Under the pieces are notes generated by a model, which had not been told where the DNA came from, searched no databases, and saw only the letters and a program-made list of their open reading frames with translations. A stretch of 64,000 nucleotides of DNA from Eledone cirrhosa. Taxonomy: Eukaryota. Made by a program: the position numbers and the translations under genes. Location of the stretch: positions 190,960,001-191,024,000 of the forward strand of contig OZ024742.1 of the NCBI GenBank assembly GCA_964016885.1, read 5' to 3'. Shown piece by piece: positions 14,274 through 58,146 of this stretch; position 1 is the stretch's first letter, and each line of letters begins with the position of its first letter.

Positions 14274-14306
<33 letters not shown>

Positions 14307-14331
14307 TTATATATATATATGTATATATATG

Positions 14332-16643: not shown

Positions 16644-16980
16644 ACGTTCAACAATCTGGCAGGAAGGTATACGTTGCTGACGATAGCTAATAAGCCTGAA
16701 ACTAGTACAGTGTTCCTTTGTCAGTGTGAGAACAAACGAGCAACGATGATTGCTGGACACTACGGCTTAATACGGGATGTTTGTTTACAAACACAAAGAG
16801 CATTATAATAAATGTTCGGTGAATCCATACGTACATATATATATGTGTGCATGTATGTATATATATATATACATACTACTGTACGTCTGTATACATATAT
16901 GTATGTACGTGTACATACTTATATTTAAGTAACAGCCGTACTAAGAGTGGGAAATGAAATTTCGTTTCATTTTTTCCGTT
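16644..16980 (+). mobile_element. Retrozyme-like family H, partial copy with HHR at 16671-16714
   Basis: cgttg-CTGACGA-tagctaataagcct-GAAAC-TA-GTA-cagtg. Ends in gaaatttcgtttcattttttccgtt followed by (TA)n. Confidence 0.8.
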
Positions 16981-17394
16981 TATATATATATATATATATA
17001 TATACTGACATACACACTCGTATAGATACATGTATAAAACCATACAAATATACTGACAAATGCAGACACATATATACAAGCTTACATACATACATACATA
17101 CAATGAAACATATATGCATACACTGTTACACATACACAAACAAATAGAGCCACATATAGACACATGAACAGACATACACACACATAAATAGAAACTTTTA
17201 GAAGGCTGGACTGGGGAAGTTCCTGCTTTATAAACACTGTATGAAAGTAACAGAGGGAATACTCCACCCCAATGTTAGCCATTTGTTTAATGATTTTCAT
17301 TTCCAGTTCCACCAGAATCACCTTTTCTTTAACGAAACACACACTTTCATTTTAAAATGTTCATCATCATCATAATAATCATCATGGACTTTTA

Positions 17395-18920: not shown

Positions 18921-19191
18921 GCGTTGCCAAGCGCACATTTCTAATTTTGAATTCTAAAAAATTTATTTCATACGGTAATTAAAAACACAATTTTTTTTGC
19001 GAAAACTAATTTTTAGACGGAGTAAGTTGAAATTACGATTTTCCATGTGTGGCTGTTGAAATATTAATTCAAACCACAGCTGTTTAGTGCATAAATATCC
19101 CAAACAGTATTGTTGTGAAAATAAACATTAGAAGCACCAGTCATACTATACATTATCAGCGTCATACATTTTATAGATCAGTATTATTAAC

Positions 19192-22782: not shown

Positions 22783-22966
22783 TAATTGTTTCTACTTTTG
22801 GCACAACGCCAGCAATTACCTCAGTGTATTACTGGTACTTTATTTTATCGACCCCGTAAGGATGAAAGACAAAGTTAACCTTGGCGTGATTTGAACTCAG
22901 TCCGTAAAGGGACGTAACTGTGCTGCAAATCATGGCGTCCGACCCTCTACCGATACTGCCAATCCA
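22783..22966 (-). mobile_element. tRNA-derived SINE (190-bp family)
   Basis: Full reverse-complement copy. Confidence 0.85.
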
Positions 22967-26334: not shown

Positions 26335-26458
26335 TCCAGCCGGCCGTTTCGTTATAAGATTTCTACAATATGGGATAAATAATTTCCAGGTTATGTAGAA
26401 ACTTGTATATAATCCATAGTTTTATACACAAGGGGGCTCTTATAAACTCATCAGTGGA
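26335..26458 (-). ncRNA. Type I hammerhead motif with mutated cleavage triplet
   Basis: Minus strand reads tcca-CTGATGA-gtttataag...cttataac-GAAAC-ggcc-GGC-tgga. Confidence 0.7.
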
Positions 26459-26469
26459 TGCCCATATAG

Positions 26470-27031
26470 ATTCCTTATGCATATTAACGGCTGAGCAGCC
26501 TAATTTGCATATTGAGTGAGTTTAGTCGGCCGGGCGCACCGAAAACGATAAATGGAAAAAATGAAGCGAAATTTCATTTCTCATTCTTAGTACGGCAGTT
26601 ACATAAATGTAAGTATGTATTCACTCGATATGCAAATTGAGCTGCTCAGCCGTTAATATGCATAAGGAAAGTATATACTTTCAGACGTTCAATCATCTGA
26701 CAAGAAGGTATACAATTCTGACGATAGCTAATAACCTTGAAACTAGTACATCGTTCCTATGTCAGTGTTGAACAAAGGGGCAACGATGGTTGCTAAACAC
26801 TGTACGGCTTAATTCAGGCTGTTTGTTTACAAACAAACTGAACATTATAATAAATGTTCGGTAAACCGATACGTACATATATATATGTGTACATATATGT
26901 ATATATATATATATATATATACATACTACTGTACGTCTGTATACATATATGTATGTACGTATACATACATACTTACAATTAAGTAACTGCCCGTACTAAG
27001 AGTGAGAAATGAAATTTCGTTTCATTTTTTC

Positions 27032-27033
<2 letters not shown>
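26470..27033 (+). mobile_element. Retrozyme-like family H copy with 5' inverted piece
   Basis: 26470-26620 is inverted and 26620-27033 is sense, with a diverged HHR at about 26712-26755. Ends at (TA)n. Confidence 0.8.
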
Positions 27034-27077: not shown

Positions 27078-27082
<5 letters not shown>

Positions 27083-27594
27083 AATTACTATATCTACCAA
27101 CATATATATACAGATGCATACCTATGCTAGCAAATATATAGGTTTTGTCTTAGTAACTTTGTGGTTCAATGCAAGGGGATGCAGAGCAATTATATGAAAG
27201 ACGTAAAATAAGAAAATTATAAAAAATTAACTTACTAAAATTTCACTCCAACTAATTAGTTTCTGAAAGGGAATAAACATGGTTTCCAAATGGAAAGCAT
27301 GGAGAAACCTTTCGTCATCAGGAAGTCTGTTCTCAGCTAAGTTACCAGGCGATGCGTGGACACAGGGAACTTATACAAAAATAATTCAGTGGATGGAAAA
27401 AAGCAAGCGTGGACTAAATTCCAAGACATCGCCTGGTAACTTAGCTGAGAACAGACTTCCTGATGACGAAAGGTTTCTCCATGCTTTCCATTTGGAAACC
27501 ATGTTCATTCCCTTTCAGAAACTAATTAGTTGGAGTGAAATGTTAGTAAGTAAGTTAATTTTTATAATTTTCTTATTTTACGTCTTTCATATAT
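27078..27594. mobile_element. Family B fold-back copy with two mirror HHRs
   Basis: Arms at 27191-27354 and 27427-27594, homologous to 2641-3500. Minus-strand HHR at 27245-27326. Confidence 0.85.
27455..27536 (+). ncRNA. Type I hammerhead ribozyme (family B)
   Basis: acttc-CTGATGA-cgaaagg...cctttca-GAAAC-taatta-GTT-ggagt. Confidence 0.8.
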
Positions 27595-27897
27595 ATATAT
27601 ACATATTTGTTAGCGAAAAGCAAAATATTTCTACCGTACTGATAAGGAACGTGCAGATGATCCATCATGTGTATATCATTAAATTTGTACTAGTGATCTT
27701 TAGGGCACTTATAAATTTTACTAACTATCTCAGTACAAATCTTGCATAGCTTCGCTTCACAGAACCTTAAATAGCATTAGGAAATTGCAAGTCCGCTGCG
27801 TTAATGGAACTAGATATGTGGCCAGTAATAACACATGCAGAGATATCAAAATATGTATTTGTACACTGGTCTACATATACATTACCTTCCATACATA

Positions 27898-29035: not shown

Positions 29036-29204
29036 ATCCATCCATCTGTCCATACATACATTCATACATACATACATACATACATACATACATACATACA
29101 TACATACATACATGTAAGAAACTTGGACACCACGTGCACCATCTAAGTCTACCTCGAATACTGGGGAAAACACTATCGATAATATTAATAATCGTAGAAA
29201 TAAT

Positions 29205-29388
29205 AATAATTGTTTCTACTTTTGGCACAAGGCCAGCAAATCACCAGTACATTACTGGTACTATATTTTATCGACCCCGTAAGGATGAAAGGCAAAGTTA
29301 ACCTCGGCGGGATTTGAACTCAGAATGGCAAGGGCCGTAACTCTATGCGTCAAAGCATGGCGTCCGATCCTCTACCGATACTGCCAAT
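29205..29388 (-). mobile_element. tRNA-derived SINE (190-bp family)
   Basis: Full reverse-complement copy. Confidence 0.85.
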
Positions 29389-31527
29389 AATAATAATAAT
29401 CGAAGAAATTTGACACCACGTGTACCATCCGAGTCTACCTCGACTGTTGTGGAAAATACTATCGATAATGATAATCAAAAGTATAAACAATTGAAAATTT
29501 CCCTCAACGAAATCTTCCAGAGAGAAATTAACTCATGTATAAATATCTCTCTTGCTGAACGTGTTAAAACGACAATGTTTAATAAAAAACCAAATAATGA
29601 AATACTACGTGTTTTTGACGAAATAGGGGATGAATATTTACGACGGATAAAAACCCCAACATCTTGGCAAATCAACGCCTGTTTATATGCCCTAGCAACG
29701 GCAGTGAAGCATTATCTTGGTGATAGCAGAGATATTAACAAGAACAGAACACCACCAAAAATACCATCATATATAACTAAAATAGAAAAAAAGATTGCTG
29801 ACCTACGAACAAACATAGGATATGTGACAATGCTACTTACATGCAAACAAAGACAAACAAACATCACTCCTCACCAACAAAGAGTGAACAATAAAATAGA
29901 GACAATGTTTGGTAACAGTAGAACCAGAACACTCCAATATAAGCTGATCACCCTCAAACAAGAATTCAGAGCTGTTAGCGAAAAACGCCGATACCTGAAG
30001 AAGGTAGATGAGAGAAAAGTGCTTAATAAAAGATTCAGACGACACCAAACATCAGTCTATAGAGATATGAAGGGCAAAAACCCCAGAAAGACATAGATTC
30101 CTTTTAGAGCAAAATATGAGGTGAAAAGAAGAATTTCAACCAAGATGCAGTGTGGCTAAGAGAAATCCGAAAGAACTATTGCTCCTACACTACAACAAAA
30201 AACATACGAAATAAGTGAGGGTACCCTTGAGACTGTGATAGGAAAACTCCAAGATAAGAAAACACCAGGAAGAGACATGATTGTCGGCTACTGGTACAAA
30301 AAACTGATATTCTATCGGAGGTATCTTACTGACCTCTACCAACAAGTTCTGAAGTGAGATACACTTATACCAGAATGGTTGACATTAGCACAAACATTAC
30401 TGATCCCCAAGAACAAAGACACCCACTTGGCAAAAAACTACCGACCCATTGCATGCCAGAACCTGATGTATCAGATGTATACAGCCTGCCTGAACCTATT
30501 CCTCCAAGATCACTGTGAAAATAATAACATCATCACAGATGAACAAGCAGCTGGAAACAAAGGGGTTTGGGGATGTGCTGAACAACTCCTAATCAACAAA
30601 ACTGCGATGTCGGACGTGCGACAACTTAGGAGGAATATGACTACAGTCTGGCTGGACTACAGGAAAGCTTTCGATTCTGTTCCTCACTCTTGGATGATAG
30701 AGCCCTCCAACTTGCTAAAGTTCCAGACATTATTGTCAGCGCCATAGAGAGGCTGTCTTCTTCTTGAGCTACTATCCTAAGGTTAAAGACAGAGAATGAG
30801 GACTCTATTTTCATTGATAAAATAAAATATTGCAGGGGTATATTTCAGGGGGAAAGTCTCTCTGTGATATTATTCATCTTATCATTAATCCCCTTGTCCT
30901 TTCTGCTCAAGAAATGTGAGGGATACATCATTGGCTCACAGGAGGACAGAAATACGAACCTAACCCATAATTTCTTTGTGGACGATCTGAAACTCTATGC
31001 CAAGAACATGGATGGGATGAAGAAAAATCTTGACCTGGTTACAACGTTCTCAAAGGATATAGGAATGGAATTTGGCCAAGATAAATGCTCATACACCACT
31101 GTAAAGCGGGGAAAAACAACAACCCAATCTAGCAACATTGTCATCAATGGCCTAACTGTTTCACCGATATTTGATGAGGACTGCTACAGATACCTGGGGA
31201 TAGATGCGAACATATCCTATAATCGTATCTGTTATAAAGAACGCGTAACCAGAGGATACTACACCCGTTTAAGAAAGATCTGGTCACCGCAACTCTCTGC
31301 GCAAAACAAAACAGTGGCTCACAGTGTGTTTGCTGTGCCTGTCCTAACACCAACGTTTGGAATACTCAATTGGACGATAGACGAAATCCGAGCAGTTGAT
31401 GTTGGAACTCGAAAAATACTGAACAACACCGGAAACTTCCACATCAACATTGATATAGACCGCCTTTACTTGAATCATAAGCAGGGAGGCAGAGGCCTAA
31501 CATCAGTCCAGACAGCATTTGAGAAAA

Positions 31528-31710
31528 AAGGGAGAAGAAAACATGCACAGTAGTGGAAATTAGCTGCCCAGCAGATGCCCATATAATGTCAAAGATTAGC
31601 GAAAAGGAGAATATTTATGCAGAACTGATGAGAAATCTGCAGATACGCCACCCTGATTACACCTTCAGATTTATGCCTGTGATTATTGGGGCATTTGTAT
31701 ATGTTAGTAA
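31528..31710 (+). repeat. Duplicated RLE segment inside the Dong element
   Basis: Near-identical to 32988-33170. Confidence 0.85.
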
Positions 31711-32044
31711 CGATCGGGTATCCATCCCGACTATTTCTATGTCCCCGCGCATATGCACATACATGCACACATGCATATACATGTATATACATAGATATGT
31801 ACATGTGTATATACATATTTACACATTTTTGGATGGCCGTTGCCTCTTATGAGTTCTTACGCTCTTTCTCCGCTTTTGTTTTTTGCCCTGCAGGGTGTCC
31901 AAAGCCCCCCCCCCCCCTCCCGCAGCAAGTAAACGTGGTGGGGTTGCCGGTTTAATCACCGACGACACGACCATGCGACAGGTTGTACTGGGTTACATGT
32001 TACCAGTAGTACTCAAGAGTGACCTGACATACATATATACCTAC

Positions 32045-32250
32045 ATTTGATATTGATGTTTGGGACCACACATTGAAAACATGCTCTGTTGGGAAGATTA
32101 ACTGCCCACTTGATGTCAACTTTGTAAGTAAAATACAAGAGAAAAGGGACATCTATAGACAATTGATGAGGAGTTTGCAAATTCAGCATCCATGATTCAC
32201 CTTCAGTTTCATACCTATCATCATTGTAGCTACAGGTTATATAAGTGAGG
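32045..32250 (+). mobile_element. Diverged second Dong-like RLE fragment
   Basis: Translates as IDVWDHTLKTCSVGKINCPLDVNFVSKIQEKRDIYRQLMRSLQIQHP*FTFSFIPIIIVATGYI, colinear with 32975-33165. Confidence 0.75.
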
Positions 32251-33552
32251 AAAGACTGTGCACTGAGCCAATTCCACTCTCTGAGCAACAGTAGCTATAA
32301 CCCGAAAAGAAGAAAAGATCAACATCATCGGTAACTACTGATACATACATACATACCTACATACATAGATAAGATCATGAGAGTTGGGAAGAAACTGATC
32401 GAGAGATATTCCCTGTGTGATAATCAAAAACTCACACCCAGGAATGTCGCTCAGCAGTATCGCAGTGAATCCATAGATTTAAAAACTGCATGCCTATCAG
32501 CAAAACATCATTCATGGATATGTTGCCATGAAGCTCCAGAGTGAGAGTAATATAGATAAGGAAAGTAGTTTATCTTGGTCCAACAACTGCTATATTGGCT
32601 CCTACTTTGAAGGATACGCTTTTTCAATCCAGGAACAGGAGGTTAACACGAAATACCTGATTCACAAAAGAGATAGGGATGCAGGCAAAACACCTAGATG
32701 TGATAACAAGTGCAGACTCTGCAGAACTAACATCGAGGATATCACCCATGTCATCAGCAGCTGTCCAAAGATGTCACCGCGGTACTATCTACCCATGAGG
32801 CGACGTAGTGGCCAAAACACTGTACAATGTGGTTCGTAAAAAAGATAGCCCAGATAATAAACACATTAAAAGCTACAGCAATGTGGAAGACATCCATGTA
32901 CATAATATGAAAGAGTACTGGTGGAATGTTCCACTAAAAACCCCAATAAAATGCAGGCATAACAGACCAGATATTATGATATGGGACAGGGAGAGGAAAA
33001 CATGCACAGTAGTGGACATTAGCTGCCCAGCAGATGCCAATATAATATCAAAGATTGGCGAAAAGGAGAATATTTATGCAGAACTGATGAGAAATCTGCA
33101 GATACGCCATCCTGATTACACCTTCAGATTTATGCCTGTGATTATTGGGGCACTGGGATATGTTAGTAACTGCCTCAATACAAATCTTGAGAAGCTAGGC
33201 TTCACAGGAACAGAAAGAACACAACTAGTTAGGACATTACAAGTATAATCCATTAATGGAGCAGTAAAAATATGTAAAACATTCCAAAAATGTTGCATCT
33301 AATAACTGCATATACACATGTGCAGATGCAAAGCATATACACATACACACATACAGCTCAAAACATACACATTCACACATACAATAACATCAATATCTAC
33401 ACATGCATGCATACATATCTACCTAGTTGATGTTGTGTAAATTCCAATGAGAGAGTCTTGGTCTATGTTAGAAACCGACTATCTCTCTCTTTTGGTAAAA
33501 CTTTGTGAAATCATACATACATACACACATATATACAAGCAACTATCATTAT

Positions 33553-33745
33553 TGGTGGATTGGCAGTATCGGTAGGGGGTCGGATGCCATGCTTTGACAC
33601 ATAGAGTTACAGCCCTTTCCATTCTGAGTTCAAATCACGCCGAGGTCAGCTTTGCCTTTCATCCTTACGCGGTCGATAAAATAAAGTACCAGTAATGTAC
33701 CGAGATAATTCCTGGCCTTCTGCCAAAAGTAGAAACAATTATTAT
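33553..33745 (+). mobile_element. tRNA-derived SINE (190-bp family)
   Basis: Full copy. Confidence 0.85.
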
Positions 33746-33965
33746 GAGAAAATGGGGGCCCACAGGCTGGCCGCCCCACCTTCACGGCGGACAGAACCAA
33801 TTGTGGATGTTTAACTTGTAAATTGTTTCACTAAACTAGTATTTTCAGAAATTAAATCCACTACTACTTCTTCTCTCCCTCAACTTTGCAGTTACAATTA
33901 TTATTTCCTGTTTCACATTCATTATTTCAGCGACGCCATGCCAAAAAGTAGAAACAATTATGAAA

Positions 33966-34352
33966 TAATTGTTTCTACTTTAGGCACAAGGCCAGCAAAT
34001 ACCCAGTGCATTACTGGTACTTTATTTATCGACCCCGTAAGGATGAAACGTAAAGTCAACCTCGGCGGGATATGAACTCAGGTCGTAAAGGGACGTAACT
34101 ATGCTGGGAAGCATGGCGTCCGACCCTCTACCGATACTGCCAATTCACCGCCCATTATTTCATAATGCCGGTGGATTGGTAGTATTGGTAGAGGGTCGGA
34201 CGCCATGCTTTGACGCATAGAATTACGGCCCTTGCCATTCTAAGTTCAAATCTCGCCGAGGTTAACTTTGCCTTACGGGGTCGATAAAATAAAGTACCAG
34301 TAATGCACTGAGATAATTGCCGGCCTTGTGCCATAAGCAGAAACAATTATTT
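33966..34352. mobile_element. Head-to-head pair of SINEs
   Basis: 33966-34153 (minus) and 34169-34352 (plus), about 15 bp apart. Confidence 0.85.
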
Positions 34353-35809
34353 CATTATCTAGCTTTCAATTTTTGTACAACTCCACATTCCGTATATCAA
34401 TCTTATCGTACCCATCACATCATTTTATCTGAATTTCTTTTTCTGACACTATCGATTTCGCTGTATGAATCTGTCAATCATTGTTTTCCACTATTCCAAT
34501 TCAATCATTACATTTTGTCATTATGGAGCCTCCCCGCCCTTTCACGAAACCCTGTCGTATGATATTTGTAATTTATGGGTTGAGAGGGAGGAAGTGTATA
34601 TATTTGCCTGCCACCCTATGTATTAATTAGTGAACGCTACATAAATGCATACATACATAGATACATGTGTACATACATGCGTACGTACATACTTACATGC
34701 GTACATATATACTTACGTACATACATGCGTACGTACATACTTACATGCTTGCATACATACCGTACATACGTACATAAATCATACATACATGCATACATGC
34801 ATACATGCATACATAGGTGCGTATGTGTTTCCAAAGAGTAGCCAGTGTCTGTCCCTGGATGGCATATTTCCATATATGGTGCTAAATTTGTTGCTAACAT
34901 CAATGGAGGGTGGCAGTGCTGGAGAAGACCTGCCCTGCCTGGACAACTATTGGAAAGCAGCTGTTAAAATGGTAATGTCTCTGGATTAACTGATAGAATT
35001 ACACTGTTTGTTATATTTATAAGTATATTTTCAATAAATGAGATTGTTCTTTTTTTTTTTCTGTGTCTTTATTGTTGTTTTATGATGTAGAATCAGTTTC
35101 ACAAGTCCTTTTCTGTTTTCATTCTACCCCACGGTCTTCCTAATACTGGTAAAATCAGCATTATTAATTGCCTTAAACGTTCCCCGCAGAGTTGGTGCTG
35201 CCTCTGGAGTTAGCAAGTAAGGAATTTATTTTGAAATTTGTTAACATATATTACGGAATGGATGTGGGACTTTAGAATTTTAGGTCTTTCCAATGTCTAA
35301 TCCAATCGTTCCTAACATTTTCTCTCTCAATTTCTTTTATTTAAATAACATTTCCCTACAAACACTGTACTTCAATTCCTCTCCTCCTAGATTGTTATAT
35401 AGTGAGAATAACTACCAAAAAGTGAAATGTATACACCAAGAAAAGAATAGATATTCAATAGTATGTTTTAAATGCAGTTCTTGAAATTTTTATTCAGTCA
35501 GAATAACAATGAAAACAGAGAAATATTTAGACTTAGATCCCAAATAGCATATGTATGTCATGTTTTTAACATAATATTGTTATGGTTATAGTTAGAAAAC
35601 AATACTTACCAGTAGTGTGTATATATCATGTTTTTACATGATATACACAACCCCCAGTTCTTCCCTAACGGAAGTGAAAATGTTCAGTGATTAAATTATT
35701 TGTCTTGACTCAACAGATCTATGCAAATGATAAATTTAACAAAGAATATCAAACTATTGGATAATCCTGGTGTGGTTATGTCTGATAATCCATCCCACCG
35801 ACCCAGGGT

Positions 35810-36510
35810 CCCTCGCTCTACTTGATTACAAATCTGCCCTCCCCAAACAGCTCTAAAAGAGAGTACACCTTCAACGAAATGGCTCGCATACGCAACCGGT
35901 GCGGCAACGCTTCTAATAGAGCTACCCATATCAGACGATTCTGCTAGGTACTAGAGATTAACGGCTATCCAGTTTCCTTCTCCACCCCACAACGAAACCC
36001 CAGATACAGAGACCGACCAACACAAACAACAGTTGCTCCTTCAAGATCCCACATCACAGCCTGGAAACCACCAACGCCATACGCAAAGCCAACAGAAGAG
36101 AGGGCCTCAATATCAAACTAGCTCACTCTGGACCTTCCCTGTGAAAATGCCTCTCCACAAGGCAACCCCCAAACGAGGATAATGGATGCAACCTAGCCAA
36201 TTGCCCTATCCGCAACACTAATTGTTGCCTACGTAGTATACAGGCTAGAATGTAACAAATGCAATCTATTTGACATAGGCAGCACTATTCGACCGTTACA
36301 TCTCCGTATTAAAGAGCATATTAACACCAACCCCTCTCCCATCCGCAAACACATCGTCAAATGCGGAAATCGGGACAACATTACCATCACAATCTTAGTT
36401 ACCGAACACAGTATAGGCACGCTGAGAACTAAGGAAGACATCTTAATCAAGCAATTAAAACCTAGGATTAATAATCGAATGGAAAGAAGTGCACCAGAAT
36501 GGTTAATTTA
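35810..36510 (+). mobile_element. PLE C-terminal fragment (thumb plus GIY-YIG, tentatively Poseidon-like)
   Basis: CNLANCPI...VYRLECNKC..DIGSTIRPLHLRIKEH...E.ILIKQLKPRINNR.E. Confidence 0.8.
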
Positions 36511-37388
36511 AAAGTCTGTATTCCAACATCCCAGTGGCCCGTTTCTAGACTCACACACACACACACATACATATAGCACACACATATTTTCCCTGTTTAT
36601 TATATACATATTCGCCCACGTCTTTCAATACATAAATTTACATAGAAACATCCTACTTACACACTTACATTCACGCACACACATGCATATATCAAACACT
36701 TTTCTGCAAACATTTCACAACTCGCATGTTCGAAATTGTAACGTCTTTTCATTTCATTTAAATTAAATCTGACTTCCAAACAAGTCAACTCCGAACGATC
36801 TTTTAAGTCTCTCCTACGGGTACTACCTTGATAACGGCTTTTTAAACTCATATTTTGGATCATGAAATTTGCTAAGGTAAGATTCTTTTGTTATCTTAGC
36901 AATTTAATTTTTTTTCTAAAGCATTGTTTCGTTTTCAAAATTACTTAAATTTGTTTTATATATATATAGAATTCACAAGAATCAAAGCTATGTTCAAAGC
37001 ATTTATTCACTTACAATTGTTTCATCCAAACCTAGGCTTGTCGCCTTCGGAGCATCTTTCAATATTTGAACACATAATTGACCTCCTTTCCAACGCAAGA
37101 GACATACAGATACATATATATATATTGATGTACAGTGGAGTGACATATATTATACTATATTATTTCTGTATAGCAATTCAAATTCAAAATCAAAATTAAA
37201 ATTAAAACAAAATTAAAATACATTCGGCAGTTAACACAGCTTTGATTCTTGTGAATTCTATATAACTGCTCTGTAGAACAACTGATGTTATTACATTGAG
37301 CTATTTATCTTACTGGTAATAGGGTAGTAATAAATTACTGACCTTCACTGTTTAGGGTTTAAAATATACATAACCATAAATAGTATCC

Positions 37389-37427
<39 letters not shown>

Positions 37428-37548
37428 AAAAATGAAACGAAATTTCATTTCTCACTCTTAGTACGGCTGTTACTTAAATATAAGTATATACGTACATACA
37501 TATATGTATACAGACGTACAGTAGTATGTATATATATATACATACATG

Positions 37549-37625
<77 letters not shown>

Positions 37626-37743
37626 GTATGGATTCACCGAATATTTATTATAATGCCTGGTGTGTTTGTTAACAAACATCCCGAATTAAGCCGTACAGTG
37701 TCTAGCAACCATCGTTGCTCATTTGTTCAACACTGACAAAGGA

Positions 37744-37786
37744 ACGCTGTACTAGTTTCAAGCTTATTAGCTATCGTCAGCAACGT
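37744..37786 (-). ncRNA. Minimal type I hammerhead ribozyme (family H)
   Basis: Minus strand reads acgttg-CTGACGA-tagct-aata-agctt-GAAAC-TA-GTA-cagcgt. Confidence 0.8.
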
Positions 37787-37998
37787 ATACCTTCCTGCCA
37801 GATTATTGAAATCTGAAAGTATATACTTTCCTTATGCATATTAACGGCATTTGCATATCGAGTGAGTTAATCGGCCGGGGTACCGAAAACGATAAACGAA
37901 AAAAAATGAAACGAAATTTCATTTCTCACTCTTAGTACGGCTGTTATTAAATATAAGTATGTATATTTCAGACGTTCAATTATCTGGCAGGAATGTAT

Positions 37999-38041
37999 AC
38001 GTTGCTGACGATAGTTAATAAGCTTGAAACTAGTACAGCGT
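37999..38041 (+). ncRNA. Minimal type I hammerhead ribozyme (family H)
   Basis: acgttg-CTGACGA-tagttaataagctt-GAAAC-TA-GTA-cagcgt. Confidence 0.8.
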
Positions 38042-38246
38042 TCCTTTGTCAGTGTTGAACAAATGAACAACGATGGTTGCTAGACACTGTACGGCTTAAT
38101 TCGGGATGTTTGTTTACAAACACACCGAACATTATAATAAATGTTCGGTGAATCCATACGTACATATATATATATGTGTGCATGCATGTATATATATATA
38201 CATACTACTGTACGTCCGTATACATATATGTATATACGTATACATA

Positions 38247-38322
<76 letters not shown>

Positions 38323-38349
38323 TACATACATACACAGACACACATATAT

Positions 38350-38895
38350 AAACATAATCATCACTAACTCACTACATAAAATAGTACAACATGGGAGATG
38401 ATGACTCAGTAAATAGTCTTTTGATGATAATCCGACAATACACGCATATAATCTGTTAGAAATGAACAGATGATTTAATCTTGCAAACAAACAAGATGGA
38501 ATCATTCATTATATATTGATTGAAGATCTCAGCTAAAATTCTATAGTTGTTGCTTACGGAAACACAATGTATAATAAAATAGTAAAAATAACATAAAGCT
38601 GGGATCTGTAGCAATGGGGCCTCAACATGTTTGTATGAGACTTTTAAGTAGTTGCATTGTCGGATTTACTTCCTCCTAACTAAGCTTAACCTCACTGCGA
38701 ATTAGACGTTATTAAGGTGCAAAAGAAAAGGCCATTGACAATGTCAGTTAATCTTCTTGTCGCTAGTGTAAACAATAGCAAAGTAGGCTTTAGTCAGCTA
38801 TCAGACGGAGATTAACAGTAATACGGTAAAAGAAATACTATAATGGCAATGGAATTTCATACTTCAGATCATGAGAGCTCTGTCTAAAATTTTTA
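38350..38895. repeat. Approximately 550-bp dispersed repeat
   Basis: Colinear direct copy at 55030-55578. Confidence 0.85.
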
Positions 38896-39203: not shown

Positions 39204-39283
<80 letters not shown>

Positions 39284-39570
39284 ATAGATAGATGGAGAGG
39301 AGGTGGGTGGCGAAACAGTATGAATAGAAGGATTTTGTCTATTTCATGTTTGTCTCGTGCTAAATTATGTTTACCGAATTATATACACATATATTTCAAG
39401 TGTTAAACTAATATATTTCTTCAATGTACTGTGTCATTTGCTAGCCACAAAATGGTTGAAAATCCGTTCAATGAAACACGAATTTGTTGTAGAACTAACT
39501 TGAGATCGAACTCGTCCTTTTCACTGAATGCTCTACTTGCTACGCATATAAGCTTCATGATTTTAACCAC

Positions 39571-42500
39571 TATATATATATGGGATAACAAGTTATCGTT
39601 ATAGTTATCCAATTAGAGGTTGTGAGTACTCTGCGTCGTTAATGCCTGAAATAAAGCCCCTTGTTGTACAGCCAACCATGTTACTCTTCATTCTTTCACT
39701 ATTATTACTCCAAGTATAACCTATATAGGAATTCCCGCGAACTCGCTGTCTAACTATGGAAACATCTTGTTGAGTCAAACAAAGCCGTACGTTAAAATTA
39801 TCCACGCCGCAGAGTACTCACAACCTCTAACTGGATTACCTATAACGATAACTTGTTATCCCATATAGGTTGAACATTAACGTATGGCAGTAACATTGAA
39901 AAGCACCACATAGCCATGTCCTTGAAAAACATACCTATACCTACAAAAAAGGACTATACACTCGGCATGATACAGCGTACTAATGACTTCATCCGTCGAA
40001 TCCGATGGAAGGCCTACCATTACAACAAAGGACACGCTAATAAGACGGAGGAATTTACAAGGAAAAAATACGGATTCAAATCGCAAAACTCCACCAGATA
40101 ACCCCAGCGCGATGCCTTCGAACTCGACCTCATGAACATGATAAGTGGAACCTTTTAAAAAAAACGGACACATCACAACAAACTGCAAAACGACATCAAT
40201 GCACTACTAAAAAAATTACGCAGTACCCACGCTATTATAGTAAAAGCGGACAAAACATCAAACGTATACACCATGAGCCTTAATACATACAATAACTTTA
40301 TACGCCGTGAACTGCACAAAAAATACAAGAAAACAACAGAATCTGCACTCACTAGCATTAATAAGGAAGGACTTAGCATAATAAAAAAAAATGAAAATAT
40401 CTTATAGAACCGAGCCTCTAACCCCTTGTAACCCCACATTTAACCTAAAGGATCACAAAAATAATTTCGAACCAGACCCCGTAATTAGATTAATATGCCT
40501 ATCGAAGTCGGATATAGGTAGAATTAACTGGATAGAGTATTCGCACAAATCAAGGACAAACTAGTAATTAAGCTATGAGGTAACACTAACGAAGCAATAG
40601 TCTGGTTCAGCAAAATAGACAGTAGAGAAACATTCAACTTCGTACAGTTCGACATTAATGACTACTACCCATCCATTTCCCCAGTCACCCTAGTTAAAGC
40701 GCTAACCTTTGCCCAGAAAAATTCGGAGCTTACCTCGGACGAAATTAAAATAATACTAGCTGCTAGGAGAACTATCATTAGATTCGAAAATAGTTATTGG
40801 GAACGAACAAACAAACAGAATAGCTTTGATATCACAATGGGATCTAATGACTCAGCACAGGTAACGCACAACTTACATAACGAATGCAATAACTTCCAGG
40901 GAGGAATTTATAGAGACGACACACTCCTTTTAGCCAAAAACTTAAATAATCAAAACATGGAAAAATTGCGGAAAAACATCAGAGTCTTCTTCAACAAACT
41001 AGGCCTAGGTATCACGCTCGAACTTAACTCTAAAAAAGCAAACTTCTTAGATGTAACACTCAACCTAAACACGGGATTAATAGAGCCCTTAGATAAAAAT
41101 AACGAGAATCTAGCCTACATTAGTTATAACTCAAACCACCCCCGATCCATAATTAACTCCATAGCACATAGTATATCCCTCAGAATATCCCGCCTATCTT
41201 CTAACCTAGAGATTTTTAACGAACACGCAAACTATTATCACATAGCTTTATATAAGTCAGGACATAAAGAGGGGCTCGAATACATACCAGATAGAGACGG
41301 CAACAACAAACCAAACGACAACTACACTACCCACACATAGTTAAATAACAAACATAGGACTAAATATACAATTAGACAACGAGCACCAAAAATAACTGAA
41401 CCGAACACTAACATAGGGATCCCTAAGTACTATAGAAGATCCAGAGATAGGAAATACTTATGGTTCAATCCAATATTCAACTCCTCTATAAAAATTAAAC
41501 TACCTTCTATATTCTTTAAGCTAATCGACAAACACTTCCCTAAACAACATAAATACCATAGAATCTTTAATAGAAGAACTATCAAACTACCTTACTCTAC
41601 TGCAGCCAACATAGAATCACACATACATAAAATCAACCACAAAAATATCTCTAAAGAAAATAACCTACCAACATACACCATAGCACCAAATACAAAACGC
41701 AAGCACATAACAACATCGCAACCACAAACACATCAGGGCGCATCACAACAAAACACTAATAGGCCTAAATCTCAACCCACCCACAACAACATACAAAACC
41801 GCAACGGAGAACCTGTACACAGAAAAGCCTCCAACTATAATTGCCACCAACCGGATAAGTGCCCACAACAAAATAGATGCCTGGATTCGAGTATGGTGTA
41901 CCTGTGTACTGTAAATTCAGGCAACTCTACTTGTCACTACATAGGTTCCACGGCTGGGGAGTTAAAAAAAAGGTGGTAAGATCACAGACACTCCATGAAG
42001 AACCGTAGACTGGAGAACTCTACAACGCTCGCGAATAAAATCTGGCAGCTTAAAAACACAAACCAGGAATATAGGATTAGCTGGTCAAAATTATCGGTAG
42101 CAAGGGCCTACAACAATGGAATGTCCAACTGCGGACTTTACAATATGGAGCTATTCCATATTTTAAGGTATGATGAGATGCTGCTTAACAGCAAAATAGA
42201 AAGATCAATTTTCTGTAGGCAGAAATAGCTACCAAGTTCACAAATTTCAAACCACCGTGATTCGAGCCAGCAATCCCAAAATTAGAACAGAACCACCTGA
42301 ATTTTAATATGCCATCACACCGCTATTAGCTGTCAAGCGACCGACTGGTCACTAGATCATAAATCTCTTAACATCGCTTTCACCCTCTCTCCCTGAAACC
42401 GCATCAACCCCATTAAGACAAGACGATCAGCAAAACATTTACCACACACATTTGTCAAACCTCCCTTCACCATCCATCCTTAGCCCGAGGGTCTCATACT

Positions 42501-43032
42501 AGTAGCTCCCAATTAATCTCTAATTTATTGCTTTTTCTTTTATCTGTCACTACCTCGTACTTCTACACGTATCTATGTAGGTTTCGAATATGACTTTTCA
42601 TGTTAGCACTAAATCCACCACAGAATCCAATTATGGACACTTACTCACCACCACCACTATCATATTCTGTACTTATATGCTCTCACTTATCCTTATTTCT
42701 TTATATTTCTATTATTTTTTCATTCTCTTACTTTTTTACTCTATCTTTTTTCTTATCTTTTACTATTTACATCTGTAACTTCTTTACATATTTATTATAT
42801 ATAATTTATTATTGATGTTATTGTTTTGATGATACGCCATTTCTCTATATATATCTTGCCATGAATGAATTATTTTTGTATTCCGAGGTAAATAATAGAA
42901 TGGAGATCGAGTGACGCAACTTCGAGCAATTAGCGGCCTCTTGACTCACCTGATCAATGAAACAATTGTTAATACCTGAAATAAAGCCCTTTGTTGTACA
43001 GCCGACCATGTTACTCATCATTCTTTCACTGT
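39571..43032 (+). mobile_element. Near full-length PLE with terminal direct repeat and 5' inverted piece; ORF pseudogenised
   Basis: SLKNIPIP...RRIRWKA N-terminus, FVQFDINDYYPSI, MGSNDSAQV, YRDD, and MVYLC..HYIGST. 39640-39701 matches 42970-43031. 39575-39637 is inverted relative to 39808-39868. Same lineage as 9896-12220. Confidence 0.92.
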
Positions 43033-43123: not shown

Positions 43124-43358
43124 ATATATAAAAAAGATAACTTTTTCGCTCTACATGGCTGAATACAATGAATGTAATCTGAGTTTTTCGAATATTAATA
43201 ATAACATTCGATTCAGAAGATCCCGTTAAGGGTGAAAGCAGCGATTCTTTGCTTAAACTGTAATGTTATTTTAATAAATATTTGCTCTACGGTTCTTATA
43301 TATTTGATTGATCCTTATCGAGCCCTCTTTGGATTTTACTCTTCAAATTTACTATTAT

Positions 43359-43403
<45 letters not shown>

Positions 43404-43486
43404 GTAGGAGGTGAGTTTTATTGTAGTACAATAAAGCAATGCAGATATCGGATAAGAAGCACTCTACAGTTTGTAGGACTAGAGTA

Positions 43487-43706
43487 TACATAATATATAA
43501 GATCAAAAGATGGTTAAAAGAGTACCATGTATTTTATTATGCGCATTTCAAAAACAAATATCATCATGCAATAACATTTGTGTTTTCATCAGATAAAATA
43601 TTTTATCTGATGAAAACACAAATGTTATTGCATGATGATATTTGATTTTGAAATGCGCATAATAAAATACATGGAACTCTTTTAACCATCTTTTGATCTT
43701 ATATAT

Positions 43707-43712
<6 letters not shown>
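43487..43712. repeat. Spacerless palindrome containing two mirror HHRs
   Basis: Symmetry centre at 43599/43600, with arms of about 113 bp and few mismatches. Confidence 0.88.
43600..43668 (+). ncRNA. Type I hammerhead ribozyme
   Basis: attttat-CTGATGA-aaacacaaat...atttgatttt-GAAA-tgcgca-TA-ataaaat. Mirror copy at 43531-43599. Confidence 0.85.
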
Positions 43713-45235: not shown

Positions 45236-45339
45236 GATTCGCTTGCAATTATGCAAACAAGATAGCCATGTCAGTAGAATGACTCCTTCATTCTTGCTCT
45301 TGTGTTGGCATGTGAACTGAACTGCAGACACTGATGTTT

Positions 45340-46795
45340 CTGGGTATCTATTGGCGTCAGCATAGCTGGTGACGTTGCCAACCTTTTTATGGTATGGTGG
45401 GAAAGGAGACTCAAAATCTCCTTGATGAGAGCTCCATAGACCTCCTCATGTACTCTCGTTACGTAGACGATATTAATATAGTAATAATGACACCTCCACA
45501 AGAGAGTACTATCATATATGATTTAGAATGTAGCACAATGGAAAGCATCTAGCAGATAGCTAACTCCGTACAGCAGGTTATATCTGTAACTATCGACTAT
45601 CCTTCCAAACACTCTAACAATAGACTACCTGCATTAGACACAGAACTCTGGATTAACACTATAGACGAGAGAGCCCAAATTCTCCACTCACACTACGCTA
45701 AACACATGGCCTCCAAATACCCGATACTCAAAAACTCAGCAATGTCCAGTAGTGCTAAGTTTAATATTCTGGTCGCTGACTTGGTACGAGTGATGAAGAA
45801 CGTGTCCCGCATCTGCGACCCAACAGAAATGGAAAGACACATCCAACACTTCATCAACCGCATGCAGTTCGCTGGCTACAACCAAAGAGACAGAATCAGA
45901 GTATACAATGAGCCACGGAGAAGTATAAGACCTTCATAGAACTGGACATGAAAGGAATTTGTCCATTATACACGAGCAAACCATGGAATAGCTTAGATAA
46001 AACTAAACATAAGAGCGGGAAAGCCACCTCATGATACGACAACCAGAGATACCAGAGTGTCATGTTCGTGGACGCTACCCCTGGAGGGAAATTAGCTAAC
46101 CAATGTAGAAAGGCCGTGAGAAAGACCCACTTAAAGATCAAAGACGTAGAAAAGCCAGGAACTAAAATAAAATCCCTGATCAGCAAAATATACCCTTTTA
46201 AGAAAACCCACTGTACTAATAGGAAATGTGTTATATGTATAGCGAAATAGAGCTTAGAAAGCCAAAGCTAAATAGAAAAAAATGAATGGAATAAAAACAA
46301 CACCCAAACAAACAATACTGACTTAAGAGAAATATAAATAAATAAATATATACACAAGCACAATAACAACAAACACATATAAACACACACTAGTAAACTA
46401 AGATGGAATACAATGACCAAAACACAGTCACCCAAACGCGAACACACACCAAACACTACACACACACGCAAACGCATACGCAGAGAAGACAAAAATAAAT
46501 AAATAAACAGATAAAATAAAAATGGCGTAGGCATACAATACAACAAGAGGAAACATAATAGTGCCACTGATGATGTTGCAGATGTGCAACGAAAGAACTC
46601 TGTTGGACTATATATATGTATTTATATCTGTATTTTTGACCGTTGGTCATTCAATGATACACATTGAGGACCAAATGAATAAACTGTGGAGATATGAAAG
46701 ATACAGAAGCGAAAACCAACCAAACAGTGAGTGTGTTCTGTTATTATTTCTGGCAATATTAGTACAACAATATGACCCTCCCCAAGTATAACAAT
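45340..46795 (+). mobile_element. PLE fragment of another lineage: RT C-half, endonuclease deleted, 3' UTR present
   Basis: IGVSIAGDVANLFMVWW, RYVDDINI, LP.LD, VMFVDATPGG and C...C..C, then a jump to NRKNEW. HHR-like CTGATGA-tgttgca..tgcaac-GAAA at about 46567. Terminus atgaccctccccaagtataacaa. Confidence 0.8.
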
Positions 46796-46835
46796 ATTTG
46801 TTTCGACACACGATTTCATATCAAAACCTCGCAAA

Positions 46836-46914
<79 letters not shown>

Positions 46915-46916
<2 letters not shown>

Positions 46917-47335
46917 CAAAGTGTTATTCAATTTGTTGGTTATTCAACACATTTATTTATAACAGATTCGATGCGCTCTACAGGAATCTTCAGGAGTATA
47001 ATATCAATAATATTAATAAATGGAAACTATCTTTATAAAACCATATTTATTGTACTATATATATTTCGAGGGTACCAAACATTTTTCGTACGCCCTCATC
47101 AGATAAAATACAAACATTGTTTTATAGATAGTGACATATTCAAGAACAAGAAGTTGTCCTAAGATTTGAATTTCTTTCACTACTCAAACAGAACGTAAAA
47201 CGATAAGTTCTTGTTCTTGAATAAAACAATTTTCGTATTTTATCTGATGAGAGCGTACCAAAATATGTTGGTACCCTTGAAATATATATAATAAAATAAA
47301 TATGGTTTTATAAAGATAGTTTCCATTTATTAATA

Positions 47336-47340
<5 letters not shown>
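46915..47340. mobile_element. TA-flanked fold-back HHR module (family D)
   Basis: Diverged arms at about 47006-47158 and 47202-47340. Sister copy at 55943-56377. Confidence 0.85.
47236..47298 (+). ncRNA. Type I hammerhead ribozyme (family D)
   Basis: tattttat-CTGATGA-gagcgtaccaa-aatatg-ttggtaccctt-GAAA-tatata-TA-ataaaata. Confidence 0.85.
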
Positions 47341-47405
<65 letters not shown>

Positions 47406-49552: not shown

Positions 49553-49742
49553 GCGGTGGATTGGCAGTATCGGTAGAGGGTCGGACGCCATGCTTTCCAG
49601 CATAGTTACGTCCCTATACGATCTGTGTTCAAATTCCGCCGAGGTTGACTTTGCCTTTCATCCTTACGGGGTCGATAAAATAAAGTACCAGTAATGCACT
49701 GAGTAATTGCTGGCCTTGTGCCTAAAGTAGAAACAATTAATA
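49553..49742 (+). mobile_element. tRNA-derived SINE (190-bp family)
   Basis: Full copy. Confidence 0.85.
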
Positions 49743-49796
49743 AATTACCAGGGAATCAACGTGTAGCTCAGCGAGTGTATATATATATATATATAT

Positions 49797-53673: not shown

Positions 53674-53689
53674 TAGTCACACATCACAC

Positions 53690-54095
53690 ATAACACTATA
53701 CACACACGCAAACGCATGCGCAAAGAAGACAAAATAAAATAAGATAAACAAACAAGCAAATAAATAAATAAATATATAGACAGACTGAACAAAAAAAATG
53801 GCGTAGACATACAACACAACAGGAGGAACAATGAATATAACACCACTGACGATGTTGCAGATGTGCAACGAAAGATTTATGTAAATTATGTAAACTATAT
53901 ATATATGTGTTTGTCTATATTGTATCTGTATTATTTTTGACCGCCGGTCAGTCAATGGCAACATTGAGGACCGAGTAAGTTAGATCGCAGATATATATAT
54001 ATAAAAGACAGCGAGAAGCGAAAACCAACCAAACAGTGAGTGTGTTCTGTTATTAATTCTGGCAATATTACGCAAATATGACCCTCCCCAAATAT

Positions 54096-54100
<5 letters not shown>
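53690..54100 (+). mobile_element. 3' UTR copy of the 45340-46795 PLE family
   Basis: Colinear with 46455-46795. CTGACGA-tgttgca..tgcaac-GAAA at 53846. Ends in atgaccctccccaaatataacaa followed by (TA)n. Confidence 0.8.
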
Positions 54101-54175
<75 letters not shown>

Positions 54176-54879: not shown

Positions 54880-54963
<84 letters not shown>

Positions 54964-54973
54964 CATACATACA

Positions 54974-55005
<32 letters not shown>

Positions 55006-55626
55006 CACACACACACACCACACATCTATATAAACATAATCATAACTAACTGGCTACATAAAATAGTACAACATGGGAGATGATAGCTCAATAAATGGTC
55101 TTTTGATGGTAATCCGACAACACACAGATGTGATCTGTTAGAAATGAACAGATGATTTAGTCTTGCAAACAAACAAACAAAATGGAATCATTCATTAGAT
55201 ATTGATTGAAGATCTCAGCTAAAATTCTATAGTTGTTGCTTACAGAAACACAATGTATGATAAAATATTAATAATAAGATAAAGCTGGGATCTGTAGTAA
55301 TCGGGCCTAAAAATGTTTGTATGAGACTTTTAAGTAGTTGCATTGTCGGTTTTACTTCCTCCTAACTAAGCTTAGCCTCACTGCCAAGCAGACGGTATTA
55401 AAGTGCAAAGGAAAAGGCCATTGACAACGTCAGTTAATCTTTTTGCCGCTAGTGTAAACAATAGCAAAGTAGTCTTTTGTCAGCTATCAGACGGAGATTA
55501 TCAGTAATACGGAAAAGAAATACTTTAATGACAATGGGATTTCATGCTTCACATTAAGAGAGCTCTGTCTAAAATTTAAACATTTACACAGACGGAAAAC
55601 TATATATTTTCCTCTATTTTCAAAAT

Positions 55627-55942: not shown

Positions 55943-56503
<561 letters not shown>

Positions 56504-56639: not shown

Positions 56640-57305
56640 GTGACCGTTATTGTTATACTTTGTGAGGGTTGTATTTTTATAAAATTGCCAGAAATAATAA
56701 CGGAACACACTCACTGTTTGATTTGGGGTTGGTTAACGCTTCTGTATCTTTTATATCGCCATAGTTAATTTATTTATATTTACCTTAGGTCACTATTGTT
56801 TGTTTGAGTATGGTTGATGTTGTTATTCCATTCGTTCTTTCACTTTAACTTTGGTTTCCTTGGTTCTATCTTAGTTGCTTCTCTGATTTGCCTACCTGTT
56901 GAGTCATTTTCATGTTTTGATATTGTTTTAATTTCTATGCTGTCTATATTACCGTCATGTCTTTGTCTTGCGTGTTCATATAGTACTGAACCGTTTTTTT
57001 TTTTGTCCTTTTAGTTCCCCCAAGTGTTGGTCTATTCTTTCTCCTATGCTTCGAGCTGTCTCACCTATGTCTATCGTTGTCATGTTTCTGCAACTATCCT
57101 CTGTACATCGTATGCTATAGACTATATTTCTAGTTTTACAATTTATCTTCGGGTTCATTCTACATATAAAACACTTCTTATTCGTACAGGGGTATCACTT
57201 GCTGATCAGGGATTTTATGGTAGTTCCTGGCCTTTCTTAGGGCCGTTCTACATTGCTTAGCTAATATTCCTCCGGGGGTAACAGCCACGAACATGACACT
57301 CTGTT
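56640..57305 (-). mobile_element. PLE GIY-YIG region plus UTR (same lineage as 45340-46795)
   Basis: SVMFVAVTPGG...CKTRNIVYSIRC...DIGETARSIGERIDQH...RQIREA...KNEW. UTR motif aaacagtgagtgtgttc is shared. Confidence 0.82.
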
Positions 57306-57402
57306 ATCAAAGATACACACACACAAACACACACACATATATATATATGTTCATATATATATATATATATATATAAACATTTAACATACATATATATATA
57401 TA

Positions 57403-58063
57403 AACAGAAAAAATGAAACGAAATTTCATTTCTCACTCTTAGTACGGCTGTTACTTAAATATAAGTATGTATACGTACATACATATATGTATACAGACGT
57501 ACAGTAGTGTGTACATATATATACATACATGCACACATATATATATATGTACGTATATATATGTGTGCATGTATGTATATATATATACATGCTACTGTAC
57601 GTCTGTATACATATATGTATGTACGTATACATACTTATATTTAAGTAACAGCCGTACTAAGAGTGAGAAATGAAATTTCGTTTCATTTTAACCGTTTATT
57701 GTTTTCGGTATGCCCGGCCGATTAACTCACTCGATATGCAAATTAGGTTGCTCAGCCGTTAATATGCATAAGCAAAGTATATACTTTCAGACGTTCAATC
57801 ATCTGGCAGGAAGGTATACGTTGCTGACGATAGTTAATAAGCTTGAAACAAGTACAGCGTTCCTTTGTCAGTGTTGAATAAATGAGCAACGATGGTTGTT
57901 AGACACTGTACGGTTTAATTCGGGATGTTTGTTTACAAACACACCGCGCATTATGATAAATGTTCGGTGAATCCATACGTACATATATATATGTGTGCAT
58001 GTATGTATATATATATCCATACTACTGTACGTCTGTATACATATATCTATGTACGTATACATA

Positions 58064-58068
<5 letters not shown>
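57403..58068 (+). mobile_element. Retrozyme-like family H: about 1.2 copies of a 430-nt monomer plus 5' inverted piece
   Basis: 57550-57638 is repeated at 57978-58068 (offset 430). 57403-57545 is inverted. HHR at 57818-57860. Confidence 0.85.

Positions 58069-58146
<78 letters not shown>

What the first reader, a model, noticed from the sequence alone, without database searches (positions are those of the whole stretch)
57403..58068. Family H: 430-nt ORF-less monomer found as circularly permuted, greater-than-unit copies at four loci
Seen: copies at 16644-16980, 26470-27033, 37421-38250 and 57403-58068 start at different points of the same cyclic sequence. At 57550/57978 and 37425/37898 the sequence wraps around onto itself. 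Each monomer has one minimal HHR (CTGACGA...GAAACTAGTA). Copies end at only two positions (...ttcattttttccgtt and ...catactta), both where the internal sequence continues with TAT and both running into (TA)n. Inference: these are reverse transcripts of a circular or multimeric RNA primed by TA microhomology.
Basis: partly seen in the sequence, partly recalled or inferred. Interest (0 to 1): 0.82.

Follow-up and report, generated by a model that had tools for sequence, protein, structure and literature searches.

The report
Hammerhead mini-retroelement with Penelope-type insertions
A 430-base non-coding repeat carrying a self-cutting RNA motif has spread through this animal genome into TA microsatellites, and its copies show the mirror-image heads and fixed ends of Penelope-type jumping genes, so it is most likely a new member of a known class of small parasites of those elements.

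Summary
The family is real: four loci share a cyclic, ORF-less 430-nt unit with a type I hammerhead. Only 2 of 7 arms exceed unit length (504 and 517 nt). The seven outward ends are all RNA 3' ends and fall at three sites (4 at m146-151, 2 at m88-92, 1 at m227-234). Two insertions use m151 on one side and m92 on the other, leaving a one-sided 59-nt extension. Inverted truncated head, partial tandem, one-sided tail, TA targets and hammerhead together are the published signature of Penelope-like elements (PLEs). An ORF-less tandem unit with a type I hammerhead is a non-LTR retrozyme. Five of 7 arms run across the cleavage site and none ends there, so the template was an uncut multimer or a circle; sequence cannot tell which, and no RNA data were obtained. 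TA microhomology fits 5 of 7 ends, not the two at 26.5-27.0 kb. No autonomous parent was identified. Verdict: new member of a known kind, useful as anatomical evidence that PLE enzymes move retrozymes.

The parts
57400..57556 (-). 57 kb locus, inverted arm, m427 to m151 (155 nt); its outer 59 nt (57400-57458, m93-m151) are the one-sided tail
   Evidence: (146-nt arms, 96% complementary)
57557..58073 (+). 57 kb locus, forward arm, m9 round to m92-95 of the next unit (517 nt, 1.2 units), running into (TA)n
57549..57978 (+). reference 430-nt unit (m1-m430), 36% GC, ORF-less; m1-m105 is a TA-rich self-complementary hairpin region
57818..57860 (+). type I hammerhead; predicted cut between 57854 and 57855 (after m306); loop-3 palindrome broken in this copy
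   Evidence: descriptor and pairing only, no Rfam match
37419..37965 (-). 37 kb locus, inverted arm, m78 round to m151 (504 nt of unit, 547 bp with an expanded internal TA run); outer 59 nt are the tail
37744..37786 (-). type I hammerhead, intact core and palindromic loop 3
37955..37965 (.). inversion joint with about 10 nt of near-identity shared by both arms
37966..38256 (+). 37 kb locus, forward arm, m237 round to m92-95, running into (TA)n
37999..38041 (+). type I hammerhead, opposed to the one at 37744-37786
26464..26620 (-). 26 kb locus, inverted arm, m79 to m227-234 (156 nt)
26621..27033 (+). 26 kb locus, forward arm, m179 round to m146-149 (401 nt), followed by (TA)n; most diverged copy
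26712..26754 (+). type I hammerhead with two broken and one compensated pair in helix I
16644..16983 (+). 16 kb locus, single forward arm, m243 round to m151 (339 nt, less than a unit), no inversion, running into (TA)n
16671..16713 (+). type I hammerhead

Best explanation
A non-autonomous retroelement of the non-LTR retrozyme kind, moved in trans by the reverse transcriptase and GIY-YIG endonuclease of a Penelope-like element. SHOWN: cyclic 430-nt ORF-less unit, hammerhead motif, head-to-head arms, three preferred 3' ends, TA-rich targets, variable 5' truncation. INFERRED: a periodic RNA (uncut head-to-tail transcript, about 55%; closed circle, about 35%; other 10%) is bound by the PLE protein; the endonuclease cuts both strands of a TA-rich site; each DNA end primes a cDNA at an internal RNA site, mostly m146-151 or m88-92, helped but not determined by 3-5 nt of TAT pairing; both cDNAs stop early and are joined head-to-head, sometimes through microhomology; one-sided priming gives the plain truncated copy at 16 kb. 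The weak palindromic helix III suggests the hammerhead cuts only as a dimer, so only multi-unit arrays elsewhere, not these four loci, could release monomers.
For: Inverted arm at 3 of 4 loci, with all outward ends being RNA 3' ends. Two loci pair m151 with m92, a one-sided 59-nt extension. PMC8557442 and PMC3846280 describe inverted 5'-truncated copy, partial tandem, one-sided 30-40 bp tail and microsatellite bias as PLE marks; PMC11167929 shows a PLE protein cutting and extending both strands at AT-rich DNA and starting at two internal RNA sites that bound the tail, with hammerhead cutting not needed. End clustering is unlikely if ends fell at random among the 15 TAT clusters of the unit (0.002 unweighted, 0.019 weighted; post hoc test). 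In three public runs of one sample 7,552-8,583 contigs each lay on the unit; loose ends at 57699 run into (TA)n (27 contigs in X1, 38 in X3), the m151->m152 read-through is present (14 in X2, 13 in X3), and further strand-switch joints lie at other places. The two arms at 26 kb share three variants absent from the other loci (m90, m102, m146), so both were copied from one source lineage. The same window holds PLE coding remnants (GIY-YIG in 3 of 12 ORFs scanned; RT relatives with a C-terminal GIY-YIG-like part) and three other hammerhead-core palindrome families beside (TA)n.
Against: No autonomous parent found: the unit core has no significant match to nine PLE-flank or hammerhead-family stretches of the window (best E 0.11), and no genome was available. 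The tail is 59 nt against the usual 30-40. No Rfam match for the hammerhead, even at E <= 10; its pairing (56 of 60 cells) does not exceed shuffles on five sequences (107 of 500 as high). No target-site duplication can be read in the TA flanks. No locus meets the two-hammerhead criterion for an active retrozyme used in bioRxiv 10.64898/2026.07.22.740005. LINE-type twin priming also makes 5' inversions (recalled). Only 1 of 12 ORFs passed Pfam's curated GIY-YIG cut-off, and the RT relatives are unnamed and gave no Pfam or PDB match.
Confidence: 0.8

Rival explanations
1. The copies are stumps of the terminal repeat of a long autonomous PLE, or a rare internal-deletion product of it; the 430-nt period is a by-product and the unit does not propagate on its own.
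For: Solo, truncated and inverted pLTR pieces are the commonest PLE remains (PMC4209133; PMC8557442); three other families in the window look like such stumps. The contig lay skipped 101 letters of the TA-rich part and showed 18 of 414 loose ends, so a branch could be hidden.
Against: Every junction of the cycle is read through in the window, m151->m152 at three independent loci and in public contigs; the share of laid contigs that run on into unlike sequence was 0 in all three runs and none of the 18 loose ends shown leads into a long unrelated body.
Confidence: 0.1
2. One reading: a hammerhead-derived RNA circle is copied by some other reverse transcriptase (LINE-type), primed only by pairing of TAT with a nicked (TA)n.
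For: 5 of 7 outer ends continue TAT or TATAT in both unit and flank; a LINE-type RT remnant lies at 29.3-33.2 kb (RVT_1); the circularised unit folds stably (z -5.2 on 60 shuffles; z -3.4 for the non-TA part).
Against: Only 3 of 15 TAT clusters are used, and the TA-richest ones (m6-m36) never as outer ends; both 26 kb ends have two unmatched bases before the TAT; asymmetric tail and head-to-head arms are PLE marks said not to occur in LINE TPRT (PMC8557442 section 15).
Confidence: 0.07
3. DNA-level origin: fold-back replication, recombination or rolling-circle copying between TA arrays produced permuted and inverted pieces of a satellite unit, with no RNA step.
For: The unit has an internal TA-rich palindrome and the 57 kb locus is a near-perfect 146-bp palindrome centred in it; two inverted arms stop at m78-79 inside it.
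Against: Fixed strand-specific 3' ends with variable 5' ends at four dispersed loci, and a kept hammerhead core (no variant at 3% or more in the CUGA-GA and GAAA boxes, though that alone is not significant), point to reverse transcription.
Confidence: 0.03

Closest known systems
Animal non-LTR retrozymes (Cervera and de la Pena 2020, PMC7229834; Li, Clavereau and Pollet 2026, bioRxiv 10.64898/2026.07.22.740005)
   Same: ORF-less unit of 430 nt (published range 150-450 bp; mussel 350-390 bp), GC below 45%, one canonical type I hammerhead per unit, stable predicted fold, co-existence with PLEs; weak helix III with palindromic loop as in one axolotl family.
   Different: Here dispersed sub-unit to 1.2-unit pieces with inverted heads inside TA microsatellites, not dimers or multimers; no circular RNA or self-cleavage shown. 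In the parts of those two papers that I read, the link to PLEs rests on co-occurrence and pLTR similarity, not on insertion anatomy.
Endonuclease-bearing Penelope-like elements (Penelope/Poseidon, Neptune, Nematis, Hydra) and their pLTR insertions (PMC8557442, PMC3846280, PMC11167929, PMC4209133)
   Same: 5' truncation, partial tandem, inverted 5' copy, one-sided tail from two internal RT start sites, AT-rich or (TA)n targets, hammerhead upstream of the 3' ends, microhomology at some joints.
   Different: No RT-endonuclease ORF; period 430 nt instead of 3-4 kb; tail 59 nt; canonical rather than minimal hammerhead; no parent identified.
Non-autonomous Chlamys elements such as MRC1 (PMC8557442)
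   Same: Non-autonomous PLE partners that form pLTRs and head-to-tail insertions in microsatellites.
   Different: Those occur in green algae, mostly lack hammerheads and share 3' ends with a known autonomous family.

Membership tests
non-LTR retrozyme | ORF-less unit of about 150-450 bp, low GC | tested here: met
   430 nt, 36% GC, stops in all six frames
non-LTR retrozyme | one type I hammerhead per unit | tested here: met
   core and helices I-III in five copies by descriptor and pairing; no Rfam match
non-LTR retrozyme | head-to-tail tandem organisation with two or more hammerhead-bearing units | tested here: inconclusive
   head-to-tail read-through up to 1.2 units, but no locus with two same-strand hammerheads; whole genome not available; contigs too short
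non-LTR retrozyme | expressed as linear and circular monomer RNA; self-cleavage | not testable with these tools
   no RNA holder listed
non-LTR retrozyme | no LTR, primer-binding site or polypurine tract | tested here: inconclusive
   no fixed terminal direct repeats, starts vary; PBS and PPT were not searched for
EN+ Penelope-like element (autonomous) | single ORF with telomerase-like RT and GIY-YIG endonuclease | tested here: not met
   no ORF in the unit
PLE-type insertion (works like) | inverted 5'-truncated copy joined head-to-head | tested here: met
   3 of 4 loci; further strand-switch joints in public contigs
PLE-type insertion (works like) | one-sided tail between two fixed 3' ends | tested here: met
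   m93-m151, 59 nt, left side only at 37 and 57 kb; longer than the published 30-40 bp
PLE-type insertion (works like) | AT-rich or microsatellite target | tested here: met
   (TA)n at 6 of 7 outer ends, short TA run at the seventh
PLE-type insertion (works like) | sequence shared with the pLTR of an autonomous PLE | tested here: inconclusive
   no match to nine stretches in the window; the rest of the genome could not be searched
PLE-type insertion (works like) | target-site duplication | tested here: inconclusive
   not readable within TA arrays
minimal PLE hammerhead (min-HHR, PMC4209133) | no helix III or loop 3, helix II 7-8 bp, helix I 4-5 bp | tested here: not met
   helix I 6 bp, helix II 4 bp, short helix III with palindromic loop

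The most novel reading that the evidence does not exclude
The template is a covalently closed 430-nt hammerhead circle that a PLE enzyme copies from both target ends at once, running past one full turn. This very abundant family would then give direct genomic footprints of a retrozyme circle being integrated by PLE machinery, and thousands of dated insertions to map RT start sites on a circular RNA.
Probability: 0.3. Interest if true: 0.62.

Novelty: new member of a known kind. Interest (0 to 1): 0.38.

Why it matters
Which enzyme moves animal retrozymes is still argued from co-occurrence and sequence similarity (PMC7229834 discussion; bioRxiv 10.64898/2026.07.22.740005). Here one insertion joins the retrozyme unit to the mechanical marks of PLE integration. 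With four loci in 64 kb and thousands of variant contigs per run, the family could test two open points at scale: whether RT start sites are set by the RNA or by target pairing, and whether the template is a circle or an uncut multimer. It does not reveal a new kind of element.

Tried and rejected
Whole genome: none held. RNA: no RNA holder listed; no evidence either way. Exact-pattern scans of metagenome (2), prokaryote genome (1) and viral (1) collections: 0 matches each. Rfam: 0 at gathering score on the window; 16 matches at E <= 10 on 37600-38200, none a hammerhead, mostly TA-rich microRNA models. One search used a structure shifted by one column and was discarded; one search is the corrected count. 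The stricter hammerhead scan missed all family copies because of its helix II rule, so its shuffle control (0 in 30) does not apply to them; the scan found 4 of 5 and had no control. Circle versus multimer by comparing repeated parts within a locus: differences of 2.8-8.9% match those between loci, undecided. Contig depth (about twofold higher at m110-m124) was not used as copy number; dips coincide with letters private to the reference copy. Acceptor-like site at m237-242 as an intron end: rejected for now, as contigs show an 8-nt deletion variant there. Pfam on four RT relatives and PDB search with their alignment: no match. Earlier scan notes by sequence and by place: nothing. Cofolding two hammerheads gave the intermolecular helix III in 1 of 2 pairs tried, weak.

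Full report
1. Observation. I number the unit m1-m430 = window 57549-57978. BLAST of the unit against the window gives family matches at four loci; other matches above 60 bits are TA arrays at 73-78%. The non-TA core matches only these loci (E <= 2e-15, next best 0.059). Mapping to a repeated unit splits the four loci into seven arms: 16 kb forward m243->m151 (339 nt); 26 kb inverted m79-m234 (156) plus forward m179->m149 (401); 37 kb inverted m78->m151 (504) plus forward m229/237->m95 (297); 57 kb inverted m427->m151 (155) plus forward m9->m95 (517). The cycle is real: m430->m1 is crossed at all four loci and m151->m152 at three. All six frames of a doubled unit contain stops; GC is 36%.

2. 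Ends. Read in the sense of the hammerhead, all seven outward ends are 3' ends. Four lie at m146-151, two at m88-92, one at m227-234. At 37 and 57 kb the left end is m151 and the right end m92, so m93-m151 (59 nt) is present as an extension on one side only. Five ends overlap the flank by TAT or TATAT; at both ends of the 26 kb insertion two unmatched bases precede the TAT, which reads best as a blunt join in a TA-rich site. A post hoc simulation of seven ends among the unit's 15 TAT clusters gives such clustering in 0.2% (unweighted) to 1.9% (weighted) of trials. The inner joints vary: about 10 nt of near-identity at 37 kb, a few TA bases at 57 kb, 0-2 nt at 26 kb. Two inverted arms stop at m78-79, inside the TA-rich hairpin. 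No target duplication can be read.

3. Hammerhead. Five copies show helix I (6 bp), the CUGA-GA box, helix II (4 bp), GAAA, a 1-2 bp helix III with palindromic loop and a GUA cut after m306. On five sequences 56 of 60 cells pair and one pair changes on both sides, which does not exceed shuffles (107 and 177 of 500). In public contigs the two sides of that pair vary at matching rates in run X1 (57821: 15% A and 7% G; 57857: 26% T), but linkage is not shown. Helix I is predicted to extend past an internal loop. Rfam does not recognise the motif. By the definitions of PMC4209133 (parts 1-2 of 4 read) this is the canonical metazoan type I form that needs a second copy to cut, not the minimal form. 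Five of seven arms run across the cut site and none begins or ends at it, so a cleaved linear monomer was not the template.

4. Outside evidence. No genome was held. Three runs of one sample, of unrecorded kind, hold the unit. On each, 7,552-8,583 contigs lay at 85% or more. Among the 18 loose ends shown of 414, those at 57699 run into (TA)n (27 contigs in X1, 38 in X3), those at 57713 give the m151->m152 read-through (14 in X2, 13 in X3) and the rest read as small variants of the unit; the share running on into unlike sequence was 0; strand-switch joints occur at further places. The tool skipped 101 letters of the TA-rich part, so the m92 end could not be checked. The family is large and has subfamilies. 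The two arms at 26 kb share three variants not seen at the other loci. The window holds PLE coding remnants: GIY-YIG matches in 3 of 12 ORFs scanned, one above Pfam's cut-off; the RT-like ORF 40579-41337 has 14 unnamed relatives of 455-729 aa, one of which also aligns to the GIY-YIG ORF 10993-11583 at its C-terminus (E 2e-18). That 39.3-43.0 kb element has a 63-bp terminal direct repeat, an inverted 5' piece and ends in (TA)n. The unit core matches none of nine PLE-flank or hammerhead-family stretches tested (best E 0.11). The host is an animal; I take it for an octopus from the look of its dispersed SINE, which is recalled and comes from no call.

5. Mechanism. PMC8557442 (passages, outline and section 15 read) and PMC3846280 (passages) list 5' truncation, partial tandems, an adjacent inverted truncated copy, a 30-40 bp tail at one end and microsatellite bias as marks of PLE insertions. 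PMC11167929 (parts 1-2 of 4) shows a purified PLE protein cutting and extending both strands of AT-rich DNA, starting at two internal RNA sites that bound the tail, without homology to the target and without need of hammerhead cutting. The anatomy here matches on inversion, partial tandem, two fixed ends and target; the tail is longer. I infer that a PLE protein acts in trans on a periodic 430-nt RNA, primes one cDNA from each target end and that the truncated cDNAs are joined head-to-head. Whether the RNA is an uncut multimer or a circle is not decided: repeated parts within a locus differ by 2.8-8.9%, as much as between loci. None of the four loci could release a monomer, since none has two hammerheads on one strand.

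6. Known kinds. An ORF-less 150-450 bp tandem unit with a type I hammerhead is a non-LTR retrozyme, shown to give circular RNA in coral, mussel and axolotl, with PLEs named as likely mobilisers (PMC7229834; passages, outline and sections 13, 14, 17 read). A 2026 preprint argues from distribution and pLTR similarity that these are non-autonomous PLE derivatives (bioRxiv 10.64898/2026.07.22.740005; parts 1-3 of 5 read); a term search of its text found no 'tail' or 'target site' and 'inverted' only in a reference. More-than-unit reverse transcription of a circle was proposed for PLEs in 2014. Seven searches of the held library listed no description of a cephalopod hammerhead repeat; a 2026 octopus repeat annotation reports recently active Penelope families and has no occurrence of 'ribozyme' in its main text (PMC13282606, passages). 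Its library and the other papers' supplements were not seen, and subscription journals are not covered. Three earlier scan notes from other genomes reach similar readings; they are unchecked and not counted as support.

7. Verdict. Real, partly misdescribed. It works like a PLE insertion (0.8) and is best filed as a new non-LTR retrozyme family, with tandem arrays, circular RNA and the partner PLE still untested. Interest 0.38; a circle template has probability about 0.3 and would merit about 0.62.

Noticed in passing
window 43131-43712; 46914-47350 and 55943-56386; 27080-27606 and 2639-3538: Three further short families beside (TA)n, each a head-to-head palindrome with opposed hammerhead cores and extra sequence on one side; they look like PLE terminal-repeat stumps and show no match to family H in the stretches tested.
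   Followed up: partly
window 39281-43030: Decayed near-full-length PLE (RT-like and GIY-YIG-like frames broken by stops) with a 63-bp terminal direct repeat, an inverted 5' piece and a 3' end in (TA)n; no hammerhead found in its ends by my scan.
   Followed up: partly
window 9890-11586, 12327-12878, 36197-36511, 45290-46900: Other PLE-like coding remnants; 12234-12346 is an inverted copy of 12554-12666, again a 5' inversion. Pieces of the 45-46 kb family recur at 53685-54173 and on the minus strand at 56648-57308, next to the 57 kb locus.
   Followed up: partly
window 29341-33248: Broken non-LTR retrotransposon with RVT_1 matches and a duplicated C-terminal part (31529-31711 and 32988-33170, 95%).
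   Followed up: no
window 6125-6360, 14069-14307, 16220-16390, 17944-18925, 22777-22979, 29194-29400, 33532-34358, 49553-49758 and others: Abundant SINE-like family of about 190-250 bp, at least 15 copies; a truncated start of it abuts the 5' end of the 16 kb copy of family H.
   Followed up: no
window 57785-57791 (m237-243): Acceptor-like motif ends exactly where the 16 kb copy begins; public contigs show a subfamily with an 8-nt deletion there and a donor-like motif just upstream. PLEs have introns near their hammerhead, but splicing is not shown.
   Followed up: partly
window 57834 and 38015 (m286): The 57 kb and 37 kb forward arms share a helix II variant that under 1% of contig depth carries, while the 37 kb inverted arm has the common letter; chance or local conversion.
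   Followed up: no
window 26380-26463: A hammerhead first box lies on the minus strand just left of the 26 kb insertion, so it may have landed in another hammerhead-bearing repeat; no full motif was found.
   Followed up: partly
window 38219-38892 and 54890-55577; 4330-4572 and 4720-4962: A further dispersed repeat of about 570 bp starting at (TA)n (90% alike), and a young 243-bp inverted pair (99%).
   Followed up: no
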